The position numbers were made by a program, and so were the translations under genes. Positions 44,226-64,000 of a stretch of 64,000 nt of DNA are shown here, one piece after another. A model generated the notes under the pieces. The model searched no databases. It saw only the letters and a program-made list of their open reading frames with translations, and was not told where the DNA came from. The DNA comes from the human T2T-CHM13v2.0 reference genome, Homo sapiens, in NCBI RefSeq assembly GCF_009914755.1, contig NC_060938.1. One strand, written 5' to 3'. Positions within the stretch are counted from its first letter, which is position 1, and each line of letters starts with the position of its first letter.

Positions 44226-45473
44226 TAATATACTACTGTTTTTCTTGGTTTTGATGGTAGATTCGTGGTGTTTTACTTGATTATGTTATAAAAATCAATA
44301 AGTGAATACATTTTTAAAATTCAAAGACCTTAAATAAATAGGTTATCTGTCTTCTATATGGTAAATATTCTATAGACACGAAGGTCACAAGAACCACTCC
44401 CACTTACAAAAAGAATAGGAGGCACTGAGCAGTGCCACCCCACGGCAACTCCGTAGTCCTGCTGGGCAGATGATGTGGGCTCTCCTTACCTGGGCCTGTC
44501 ACTCATATAAGTGGGGACACATAGAGAGGGGTTTGTAATGGTCATCATTCTCATTTTTATTTTAGGTGATTCACTCAATGGTGTTCATTAAGTTAATAAT
44601 TAAAATAATCAATTGATTAAGTCAATTAAGAATGAAGTGTTAATTGTGGGTCAGTGGTGAGAAAGAGGGCCAGCCATGGACCAATGTTGAGAATGTGGCA
44701 CAAGCCAAGGATTATGGTCAATCCAGTATATTAAAATTTTAATATTTCTTTAAAAAGTTTAAATCTAGTCTCTTTCACACCTTTTCACACCTGCTTTCTC
44801 TTCTACAGAGTGAGTGCACCGCAGGTGATCAGCTATTCTGTAATGATGAGGGCCGGGCTGCTTTCTCTGTGGGCAAGGAGCATGGAGGCTGATGACAGGA
44901 CAGTCAGGGTCCTTGTTCTTGGTTTGGATGATTTGCTCATGGATGTTGACTGTATTATTTAAAAGAAATAAATAGCTCTACATATTAAAATATTGCAGAA
45001 CATGCATGGACCAATGATGAGAATGTTATATGAATCAGTGTTCATGATTAATCCAATTCAACACCACTTCTATTAAGAGTACAGTCAGGCTATTTTATTT
45101 GTGCTGCTGGCAGTTTAATATTCATATACATTTTACATCACTGTTGATTTAAACAGTCCTCCATTGATATACACCTATGCCATTAACTGCTTAAGAGGGT
45201 ATCACAAAGGAAGATTGAAAGTAATTATCAGTATTCTATTGGGCAAGAAGATGGTGGATTTATAGTAGCTCATTGTGTCATCTTTGAAATATAGACAAAT
45301 TAAAAGAAAGAGGGCTAAGGATGGGCCAGTGATAACTGTGGCATTGCTATGTATGAAGAATGTTGATTGATCCATTGATCCATGTGTGTCATACTGAGAT
45401 GCGTTATAGGAAGAGATCTAGTGTATTATCTCTGTGGGAAATTAGATTATAGACATGCACAGTCTAGTATCAT

Positions 45474-45763
45474 CAGTGCTAGCCACTGGAGCTACTGTGC
45501 ACTTGGAATGTGACTAGTCTAATCGACATGTGATCTACATGGAAAAATACACACCGAGTTTAGAAGCCTCAATATGAAAAAGGTAAAATATTTCTAGAAT
45601 TATTTATATTTATTAAATGATAGTATTTTAGATATTGGGCTAAATAAAATACACAATTACAGTTGATTTCATCTTTTTCTTTTTACTTTTTAAATATTGT
45701 AGCTTCTAGAAAATTTACAAGTATTCGTGTAGGTGGCATTATATTTTTTATTGCTCAGCACTG
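45474..45763. mobile_element. MER33-like hAT DNA transposon remnant
   Basis: Inverted ends CAGTGCT/AGCACTG; CACTTGGAATGTGACTAGT; AT-rich core. Confidence 0.6.
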
Positions 45764-45942
45764 CTATAATCCAATGAGAGGAATATTCAATTTTATGTTT
45801 TTCTAATCCATGGGTACTGATTGTATTATTATTGGCTAATCAGTGATGAATCAATGACGAGTGAATAAATGAATGAGAAAAAAATGGGAACAGCACATGC
45901 TAAACATTAAAGTGTATACTGCTGAAACAAGGATTATTTTCC

Positions 45943-46228
45943 TTTTTTTTTTTTTTTTTTGAGACAGAGTCTCACTCTGTCACCCAGGCTGGAGTGCAGT
46001 GGCGCAGTCACAACTCACCACAGCCTCGACCTCTAGGCTTAAGCAATCCTCCTGCCTCAGCTTCCCTAGTAGCTGGGACCACAGGCTCATGTCACCACAC
46101 CTGGCTAATTTTTTTGTATTTTTTGTAGAGATGAGGTTTCACCATGTTGCCTAGGCTGGTCTCAAATTCCTGGGCTCAAGTGATCCACCCGCCTTGGCCT
46201 CCCAAAGTGCATGAGCCACTGTCTGGCC
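45943..46228 (-). mobile_element. Alu (J-like)
   Basis: polyT plus Alu reverse consensus. Confidence 0.93.
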
Positions 46229-46682
46229 TATTATAAGTAGTTTTTATTAAGCACCAAAACCTGTAAAAATAATGGCTATGGTTTAATGGTTAATTCTTTT
46301 AGGTAAGGATGGTTAGTTTGTTTAGGTAAGGAAGACATGAAAAGATCATGTAATAATCGATGCTGTTCTGTGTTGTTGGTGGTGTCTTGCTAGTCTTCAG
46401 TTTTTTGTTTCAAAGAAAATTACTGACATTAACAAATACCTGATTAAGTAGCTGACTAAATGGAAGAGGATCAAGCATGGCAAGTGCTGAGTGAGGATTA
46501 ATCCATGTAGGCACTACTGAAATCCACTGTAAGAGATACCCAGTCTCTTACCTTCATAGATGGGCCTGTAGCAGGGTCTTGATCTTAACCCTTTTATGCC
46601 TCATGGTAGTGATTACATTAGTATAGTGTAAGTGAATCGATGAGTAAATCATTAAACAAATTGAACAAATGTATAAACGAAC

Positions 46683-63000: not shown

Positions 63001-63200
63001 ATAGAGTCACTACTGAATTTTTTTTGATGATTTTCTATCCAGCAATTTTACTGAAGTCATTTATCAGTTCTAACAGTTTTTTTTTTTTGTGTGAGGTAGT
63101 TTGGATTTTCTGTATATAAAATCGTGTCATCAGCAAATAGAGACAATCTCACCTCTTCTTTTTTCTATAAAGATGCCTTTTATTTCTTCTTGTTCTTCTA
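60034..63200 (-). mobile_element. Old L1M fragments (two or more) with a nested minus-strand Alu at ~61040-61313
   Basis: ORF2-like peptides ([41 protein letters not shown]); TATTGTTGAGT TSD around the Alu. Confidence 0.88.
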
Positions 63201-63920
63201 GGATAAGTCTACTTTTCTTCCACGTAACAACCACAGGATAGATGACATTCATTTTCTAAGAAACAAAATCTTGGCAGTTAGATCCGTGGGGTAAAGAATA
63301 TAGATACTAATGTAAGTTAACACCTCAAGTTCATGTCCTTGGTTTGGATGCTTTGTTCAGGAGTGTTTAGTGGTATTTCAAAGGAATCAATATCTATAAC
63401 AAATTAAAATAACCAGGAATGGACCAGTGATGGAAATGTGTTCCGAAAATATGTTTAATATAATTTGGCACAACTGAAGTGATAAAAATATAGTAGTTAG
63501 ACCATTTATATTCACAATTATTTAACATTGTATCTTATTTTCTACCTCAAATGATTTAATCTTTTCCATATTGGTATGGTCCTGGCCGATAACTCTTTGT
63601 GTGGCAGCCTGAGAGAATATGGAAGACACTGTCAGTGTTGGAAGATGGTGGTTTTATCACTTTTCATTGCACTGTCTTTAAAACATGGGCAAATTGACTA
63701 AAAGAAGACTACAGAAGAAATAATGGTGATTGTGAATTTGGTATGAAGCATGGATGTTAATTAATCACACATGTTCTCTGAGGTCCATTGTAAAAGGAGA
63801 CCTAGTCTTCAGGGAGAGAGCCACTAATGGGGAGATCTTATTCCTAGAATTTTGTGGTTATATTATTATTCATGAACCAATGAATAATAAATGAATGATA
63901 TAAAGGAAGAAAAACGTGCT

Positions 63921-63994
63921 TGGACCAATGATGAGTACCATGGGGTATCTGAAACAGGATTTTTGATTAAACCCATATGCAATTCTGAGGTCCA
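63921..63994 (+). ncRNA. SNORD113-4: C/D box snoRNA SNORD113-4
   Basis: TGGACC-ATGATGA...CTGA...TTGATTA...CTGA-GGTCCA, perfect terminal stem. Confidence 0.92.
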
Positions 63995-64000
63995 TTACAA

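What the first reader, a model, noticed from the sequence alone, without database searches (positions are those of the whole stretch)
45300..64000. Higher-order repeat: a ~10-unit, ~2.5 kb cassette in which one slot is the SNORD113 gene
Seen: SNORD113-1, -2 and -3 are 2521 and 2577 bp apart, and ten units lie from 52250 up to 54771. Slot identity is kept between cassettes. The unit just upstream of each 113-type copy has its own signature (mostly GGTATGAAGCAAGG/ATGAAAGAAGG..GATTAATT; 48014, 51990, 54491, 57097, 63720). So does the unit just downstream (ATTATGAGA...GCACTGAGTTTCAA-like; 48512, 52475, 54991, 57603). An unnamed 113-type copy sits at 48261-48330 (TAAACCAATGGTAAGTACCCTGAGG...TTTTGATTAAAC...AGGTCCA) and possibly another, Alu-broken, at ~45900. 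Inference: two-stage evolution as in satellite HORs, with monomers amplifying and diverging first and the block duplicating later, and selection keeping only one slot.
Basis: partly seen in the sequence, partly recalled or inferred. Interest (0 to 1): 0.75.

Follow-up and report, generated by a model that had tools for sequence, protein, structure and literature searches.

The report
Hidden eight-unit repeat behind SNORD113 snoRNAs
The human SNORD113/114 small-RNA genes sit in a lattice of about 200 decayed copies of one 250-base small-RNA unit, ordered in repeating blocks of up to eight units with one host-gene exon-like element and at most one intact small RNA per block, likely because each block makes one intron that releases only one small RNA.

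Summary
The higher-order repeat is real, but the full cassette has 8 units (~2.07 kb), not 10 (2.5 kb). 52250-54771 is 8 units plus an internal 2-unit duplication; 54771-57348 is 8 units plus a ~510-bp interspersed repeat, so the near-equal 2521/2577 spacing is coincidence. Slot identity holds with position-only labels (p=5e-5), in spacers alone (0/5000 permutations) and in held-out downstream DNA (31/39 steps in slot order, 0/100000 shuffles). The lattice runs ~88 kb (206 monomer hits) through SNORD113-9 and the SNORD114 cluster, whose ~1-kb unit is a reduced form. One slot carries a ~85-nt element homologous to MEG8 exons. Only slot-0 bodies are conserved (74% versus 55-59%); slots A, C, D and E share box lesions, so they probably died before the block multiplied. 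In 42-63 kb all five exon elements have lost a splice site, and of four slot-0 copies there only SNORD113-3 is intact and expressed (34,202 reads versus 1 and 2). One snoRNA per intron is the likely reason for one live slot; across the cluster that test is only suggestive (p 0.01-0.53). Not found in the papers searched; the 2002 discovery paper was unavailable.

The parts
39339..64000 (+). Array of ~56 SNORD112/113-like monomers (~205-350 bp: ~70-nt C/D-type body plus spacer); continues to about position 127400 beyond the window
   Evidence: nhmmer iterations; Rfam RF01169/RF00181 sub-threshold hits; reverse control 0
25350..25426 (+). SNORD112, an intact monomer most like slots F/E; a decayed partner monomer at 25657 and an exon remnant (no AG) at 25485-25569
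   Evidence: 403,647 reads in PMC4914119 supplement
40873..40962 (+). Annotated MEG8 exon lying in the spacer of slot-E monomer 40757; model of the exon slot
   Evidence: hub table
45470..45762 (.). Interspersed repeat inserted between slot G (45322) and the broken slot-0 copy; about 70% identical to 39 other genomic places scored
   Evidence: family name not tested
45896..45930 (+). Probable slot-0 (113-type) 5' half broken by an Alu at 45930-46224
   Evidence: Alu from NCBI mask and SRP-like Rfam hit
48261..48331 (+). Unannotated slot-0 pseudo-copy; box C ATGGTAA, box D lost
48262..52249 (+). Cassette 0-A-[~2 kb insertion 48600-50625]-D-E-F-G, 6 units; exon element 51251-51335 without AG
52250..52319 (+). 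SNORD113-1: boxes C and D intact, terminal stem lost; 1 read
52250..54770 (+). Ten-unit cassette 0ABCBCDEFG (anchors 52250, 52475, 52741, 52959, 53164, 53409, 53631, 53863, 54188, 54491): 8 slots plus an internal BC duplication; exon element 53976-54069 without AG
54771..54841 (+). SNORD113-2: box C ATCATTA, box D CAGA; 2 reads
54771..57347 (+). Complete eight-unit cassette 0ABCDEFG (54771, 54992, 55246, 55479, 55735, 55950, 56259, 57102), 2069 bp without insertions; exon element 56065-56147 without AG
56545..57052 (.). Interspersed repeat that pads this cassette to 2577 bp
   Evidence: 39 other places scored, 66-76% identity
57348..57418 (+). SNORD113-3: intact C, D and 4-bp stem; 34,202 reads; the only intact slot-0 copy between MEG8 exons 40962 and 63202
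57348..63920 (+). 0-A-C-D-E-F, then Alu/L1-like insertions (59236-63165), then exon-F-G of a later-duplicated block; exon element 58786-58872 without in-register AG
63202..63311 (+). Annotated MEG8 exon: in-register donor kept at 63311, in-register acceptor (63226) lost, RefSeq uses an AG 24 nt upstream
63921..63994 (+). SNORD113-4, intact; sister of SNORD113-6 in a four-slot block duplication

Best explanation
The SNORD112/113/114 region is a decayed higher-order repeat: ~250-bp snoRNA-like monomers are ordered in an eight-slot cassette (0-A-B-C-D-E-F-G, ~2.07 kb) in which slot 0 is the snoRNA and slot E carries a host exon-like element, and only one slot likely stays alive because each cassette would give one intron, from which splicing and trimming would release one free snoRNA. 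Shown: the monomers, slot order, spacer homology, extension through SNORD113-9, the exon element, conservation limited to slot-0 bodies, shared box lesions in slots A, C, D, E. Inferred: (1) one snoRNA unit amplified in tandem inside a single intron; extra bodies were redundant and most died before the block multiplied; (2) a long E/F-type monomer supplied an exon; (3) unequal crossing-over multiplied the exon-plus-eight-monomer block, before the eutherian radiation, with in-register deletions giving 4-7-unit variants and the ~1-kb 0-A-exon-G unit of SNORD114; (4) where exon elements lost splice sites (42-63 kb) cassettes merged into one intron and all but one slot-0 copy decayed.
For: Position-only slot test: same-slot mean 118.7 (n=46) vs 83.6 (n=184), p=5e-5; lag peak 8; 0 of 56 best hits adjacent. 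Spacer only: 0.50 vs 0.33, 0 of 5000 permutations. Held-out order 31 of 39 steps +1, 0 of 100000 shuffles, maximum 18. Tree: 11 label changes vs 56.8 shuffled; E+F and G+0 are sister groups; spacer-only tree 16 changes. Body identity slot 0 0.736, other slots 0.546-0.586; spacers 0.487-0.558. C+D+stem test: 39 of 44 annotated or RF00181-matched copies pass, 2 of 171 others. Shared lesions: slot A box C position 3 is T in 9 of 9; slot C position 5 is G in 6 of 9; slot D position 1 is T in 7 of 8; slot E box D position 3 is A in 9 of 12. A profile seeded with only two annotated exons grows to 68 near-full elements and lands on the annotated donors 63311 and 126524. Downstream 40-45 of 54 elements keep AG and GT, against 41 RefSeq exons beyond the window; between 41.9 and 63.2 kb 0 of 5 do (Fisher p 0.0004-0.005). 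Reads 1, 2 and 34,202 for 113-1, -2, -3. 'One snoRNA per intron' predominates, and two per intron give sno-lncRNAs (PMC11028025, passages).
Against: The cluster-wide test of shared intron versus loss is weak: Fisher p 0.12 and 0.068 on box integrity and 0.010-0.53 on reads over eight threshold choices. SNORD114-9/-10 (1.8 M and 36 k reads) and 114-1/-3 share predicted introns yet both are expressed; 11 of 35 lone copies have under 1000 reads or are unlisted. Splice sites were scored by a crude consensus, and only two array exons and the last donor could be checked against RefSeq. Slot G has an intact majority C box, D box and stem, so it may have been a second live body in the same intron. Exon loss could follow snoRNA death rather than cause it. 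Slot labels in the trees and identity table were assigned by similarity. Assignment of SNORD114-region flanking units to A and G is weak.
Confidence: 0.7

Rival explanations
1. The architecture is as described, but the single live slot reflects selection on the SNORD113/114 guide sequence alone; intron number plays no part and exon decay in 42-63 kb followed snoRNA death.
For: Co-expressed pairs in predicted shared introns and weak cluster-wide statistics. Canonical Nm targets are reported for SNORD113/114 (bioRxiv 10.64898/2025.12.17.694928, passages).
Against: One exon element per cassette is kept even in the shortest variants; SNORD112, a different slot type, is live in its own intron; of four slot-0 copies in the merged intron exactly one is expressed.
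Confidence: 0.3
2. Slot similarity comes from in-register gene conversion among pre-existing monomers, not from duplication of a block.
For: Conversion is reported for the SNORD116 family (PMC8789076, search-listing abstract only); within-slot trees are largely unresolved.
Against: Order is kept over about ten cassettes with in-register deletions; four consecutive slots give the same sister pair; 14q(I) genes cluster with their orthologues, not within species (PMC4063771 section 18); insertions are private to single cassettes.
Confidence: 0.07
3. The 'dead' slots are functional: cis-elements for splicing or chromatin, or snoRNAs that are live in other mammals.
For: Bodies are more alike than spacers even between slots (0.530 vs 0.486; shuffled 0.475 and 0.477); slot G keeps an intact majority motif set; a G/0 hybrid at L007:1878-1952 has boxes and a 6-bp stem.
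Against: Within-slot body identity outside slot 0 is barely above the between-slot level; slots B-D and F are often deleted; 2 of 171 pass the box test, close to the random-anchor rate (2 of at most 400).
Confidence: 0.12

Closest known systems
14q32 SNORD112/113/114 tandem C/D snoRNA arrays in MEG8 (Rfam RF01169, RF00181, clan CL00069)
   Same: Same locus and genes; described as tandem repeats of snoRNA genes in repeated introns of lncRNA hosts (PMC11028025, passages); eutherian-specific and older than the radiation (PMC2408620, passages).
   Different: In the passages seen they are treated as 1+9+31 genes in separate families; no ~250-bp monomer lattice, ~165 relic units or slot order is mentioned. 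The discovery paper (Cavaille 2002, PMID 12045206) was not held and may say more.
Satellite higher-order repeats (alpha-satellite; recalled)
   Same: Diverged monomers in a fixed order, block copies more alike slot-to-slot than neighbour-to-neighbour, in-register deletion variants.
   Different: Cassettes are only ~60% alike with 4-10 units, not homogenised; the monomer is a gene unit; it is transcribed and one slot is under selection.
miR-379/miR-656 cluster next door
   Same: Arose by tandem duplication in early eutherians (PMC3563971 citing Glazov 2008, passages); that most of its units are inactive relics is recalled, not read.
   Different: Different unit: the snoRNA monomer profile finds one isolated hit (136721) and nothing else between 128 kb and 204 kb.
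Rat Bsr/RBII-36 and SNORD115/116 arrays
   Same: Repeats of exon plus snoRNA-bearing intron at imprinted loci, with birth-and-death and pseudogenes (PMC4063771, passages and section 18; Bsr unit structure recalled).
   Different: No internal lattice of dead snoRNA monomers is reported for them in what was read; not tested here.

Membership tests
Higher-order repeat | Tandem monomers homologous to each other | tested here: met
   206 + strand hits at E<0.05, 0 in reversed sequence
Higher-order repeat | Same-slot monomers more alike than other-slot or adjacent monomers | tested here: met
Higher-order repeat | Fixed monomer order across blocks | tested here: met
   31 of 39 held-out steps
   lag peak 8; cassette strings
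Satellite-type HOR (homogenised) | High identity and constant length between blocks (recalled criterion) | tested here: not met
   spacers 49-56% within slot; 4-10 detected units per block
SNORD113/114 family (RF00181): slot 0 | Covariance-model score above gathering 36 | tested here: met
   113-1 37.9, 113-3 59.3, 113-4 56.9; not met by 113-2 (32.2) or 48261 (26.7)
Functional C/D snoRNA: slots A-G | Box C, box D and terminal stem | tested here: not met
   2 of 171 pass; shared lesions
Functional C/D snoRNA: L007:1878-1952 | Box C, box D, stem, Rfam score | tested here: met
   ATGATGT, CTGA, 6-bp stem, RF00181 37.9 bits
Functional C/D snoRNA: L007:1878-1952 | Accumulates as a small RNA bound by core proteins | not testable with these tools
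   no row at the matching hg19 place in supplement file 1 of PMC4914119 (file cut when stored, files 2-3 not searched)
MEG8 exons: slot-E element | Spliced into transcripts | tested here: inconclusive
   matches two annotated exons and the terminal donor; count 40-45 vs 41; other coordinates not available

The most novel reading that the evidence does not exclude
SNORD112, SNORD113 and SNORD114 are the survivors of one 200-plus-unit snoRNA satellite whose exon-bearing slot sets a one-live-snoRNA-per-cassette rule; deletions that shift slots create new genes, such as an unannotated live G/0 hybrid snoRNA at chr14:95,233,878 (T2T), and other mammals keep other slots alive, which would explain their different Rian/MEG8 snoRNA families.
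Probability: 0.3. Interest if true: 0.75.

Novelty: new variant of a known kind. Interest (0 to 1): 0.56.

Why it matters
It joins three separately named orphan snoRNA families into one genealogy, gives ~165 neutral relic paralogues as built-in controls for selection on the live genes, and supplies a slot map for assigning orthologues across mammals. It makes testable why imprinted snoRNA arrays keep one gene per repeat. In practice it flags SNORD113-1 and -2 as likely pseudogenes and points to one unannotated candidate snoRNA at the end of MEG8, in a region tied to Kagami-Ogata syndrome. It is an account of origin and layout, not a new molecular function.

Tried and rejected
Tandem Repeats Finder does not see the array: too diverged. 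Global cassette alignments gave 64-68% identity for every pair but had no control and permissive gaps, so they were not used. Ten-unit period: rejected. Adjacent clustering: rejected at monomer level (0 of 56), though neighbouring slots E/F and G/0 are sister classes. Homology of the monomer to the downstream miRNA cluster: none found. Copies of the cassette elsewhere: of 7 candidates scored only one short off-locus match (44 bp, chr6); this search is insensitive at ~60% identity. MFE folding does not separate live from dead copies (z -1.3 to +0.6); only stem closure is informative. 54992 passes the box test with an out-of-register box C and is taken as chance. Shared intron versus loss across the cluster: not robust. 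Literature: searches listed no paper whose title or abstract start describes the monomer lattice (47 and 58 returned 0); most hits were seen as listings only. Cavaille 2002 and a Bsr paper were not held; Glazov 2008 was not read. Repeat family names (L1, LTR-type, MER-type) are recalled, not tested.

Full report
Observation. Rfam gives SNORD113 hits at the four annotated genes and at 48261, and many sub-threshold SNORD112 hits between 39.5 and 58.7 kb. A profile iterated from 17 such seeds finds 58 plus-strand and 2 minus-strand hits in the window at E<0.1 and none in the reversed window. After dropping a 38-bp local duplicate and a split half and adding two weak anchors (59066, 55735), 58 monomers were compared all against all. 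The majority body has the C/D plan: TGGACC stem arm, ATGATGA, CTGA, GGTCCA.

Slots. Eight classes recur in the order 0-A-B-C-D-E-F-G, 0 being the 113 type. To avoid circularity I labelled 24 monomers only by their count up- or downstream of the five 113-type copies: same-slot pairs average 118.7 (n=46), other pairs 83.6 (n=184), permutation p=5e-5; the best match is never an immediate neighbour (0 of 56); mean score peaks at lag 8. With bodies removed, spacers give 0.50 vs 0.33 per base, 0 of 5000 permutations. The size claim fails: 52250-54771 reads 0ABCBCDEFG, and 54771-57348 reads 0ABCDEFG and is 2069 bp once a repeat found at 39 other scored places is removed.

Extent. In 140 kb fetched downstream the profile gives 206 plus-strand hits in all at E<0.05, ending at 127333 apart from one at 136721; two minus-strand hits lie near 105.3-105.6 kb; the reversed control gives none. 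Classes trained on window monomers, applied from 63921 to 76300, read 0ABCFG0EFG0ABEFG0ACDEFG0ABDEFG0ACDEG0CDE: 31 of 39 steps advance one slot, the rest skip forward; 0 of 100000 shuffles reach this. Some skips are units too decayed to detect. In the SNORD114 region monomers cluster into a repeating snoRNA / after / exon-unit / before pattern; the snoRNA body is clearly slot 0, the flanking units weakly A and G. A tree of 81 monomers (labels by similarity; SNORD114 region and unassigned units left out) needs 11 label changes against 56.8 shuffled; slot 0 is one clade (100/99); E+F and G+0 are sisters; 63421, 63716, 63921, 64151 each pair with 66497, 66782, 66986, 67215, a later block duplication (bootstrap not fully settled). 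A spacer-only tree needs 16 changes, with C and B poorly grouped.

Selection. Slot-0 bodies are 73.6% identical, other slots 54.6-58.6%, between slots 53.0%; spacers are 48.7-55.8% within slot, 48.6% between. Of 215 monomers (hits plus 12 hand-added weak anchors, less those in masked repeats, one SNORD114 copy among them) 39 of 44 annotated or RF00181-matched copies pass a C+D+stem test, against 2 of 171 others. Slots A, C, D and E share lesions in box C or D, which points to death before the block multiplied; slot G keeps an intact majority; the slot-F D box could not be aligned. SNORD112 scores best against F and E (129, 121; slot 0 110).

Exon slot. Two annotated MEG8 exons (40873-40962, 63202-63311) lie at the same place after a slot-E body. 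A profile seeded with these two grows to 75 hits, 68 near-full: pyrimidine tract, CAG, ~85 nt, GTRAGT. The alignment lands on the annotated donor at 63311 and on the annotated gene end at 126524. Setting aside four F-slot paralogues, 40 or 45 of 54 downstream elements keep AG and a fair donor, close to the 41 RefSeq exons beyond the window (51 less the 10 listed); between 41.9 and 63.2 kb 0 of 5 do, matching the single 22-kb RefSeq intron. In it 48261 and 113-2 have lost boxes, 113-1 its stem, and 113-3 is intact; the catalogue of PMC4914119 (supplement file 1, rows seen) lists 1, 2 and 34,202 reads for 113-1, -2 and -3.

Mechanism. Intronic snoRNAs are trimmed from the debranched lariat, follow predominantly one per intron, and two in one intron give a sno-lncRNA (PMC11028025, passages). 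With one exon per cassette, extra bodies add no free snoRNA; I infer this is why one slot survives. The cluster-wide test is only suggestive: shared-intron copies are expressed in 6 of 14 cases versus 24 of 35 lone copies (p 0.12), p 0.010-0.53 over thresholds, with co-expressed pairs as counter-examples (unlisted copies counted as zero). I put the architecture at about 0.95, early death of most slots at 0.8, the intron rule as the cause at 0.55. Age is inferred: insertions about 30% diverged from their relatives are private to single cassettes; 14q(I) genes group with orthologues (PMC4063771 section 18); the clusters predate the radiation (PMC2408620, passages).

Known and new. The genes, their tandem intronic layout and pseudogene turnover in such arrays are known. 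The monomer lattice, its eight-slot order, the exon slot and the descent of the SNORD114 unit were not found in searches or in passages of PMC12429941 and PMC2632752. The 2002 discovery paper and Glazov 2008 were not seen, and Ensembl's Rfam-based annotation may already list some relics (recalled). Verdict: real, corrected from 10 to 8 units, wider than reported; a new variant of a known kind; interest 0.56.

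Noticed in passing
L007:1878-1952 (chr14:95,233,878-95,233,952): Candidate snoRNA absent from the catalogue rows searched: 5' part G-like, 3' part 0-like, box C ATGATGT, box D CTGA, 6-bp stem, RF00181 37.9 bits (gathering 36), between two intact exon elements, in the last MEG8 intron. A decayed sister lies at L003:5488.
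   Followed up: partly
window 43983-44053: Monomer with perfect box C and a closing stem, box D one change away (ATGA); the best-preserved non-slot-0 body in the window.
   Followed up: partly
window 63202-63226: The annotated MEG8 exon has lost its in-register acceptor and uses an AG 24 nt upstream, next to the end of a large insertion.
   Followed up: partly
L005:1299-1587: Two monomer hits on the minus strand between Alu-like pieces: a small local inversion in an otherwise plus-strand array.
   Followed up: no
L002:1176, 4227, 9669; L004:4585; L005:821, 2434, 3424; L006:7668: Eight slot-0-type copies not among the 40 catalogued SNORD113/114 genes; all but L005:2434 fail the box test.
   Followed up: partly
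L003:1100-5750 and L006:8200 to L007:3400: Blocks of 113-type slots (E, F and others) reappear inside and after the SNORD114 cluster, without annotated snoRNAs.
   Followed up: no
window 51683-51767: 38-bp tandem duplication of the D-box end of slot-F monomer 51645.
   Followed up: no
window 31039-31120: Rfam mir-1188 family match (102 bits, gathering 106) at RTL1 exon 1, with no miRNA in the gene table.
   Followed up: no
L008:2721: One isolated monomer 9 kb past the end of the array (E 1.4e-4).
   Followed up: no
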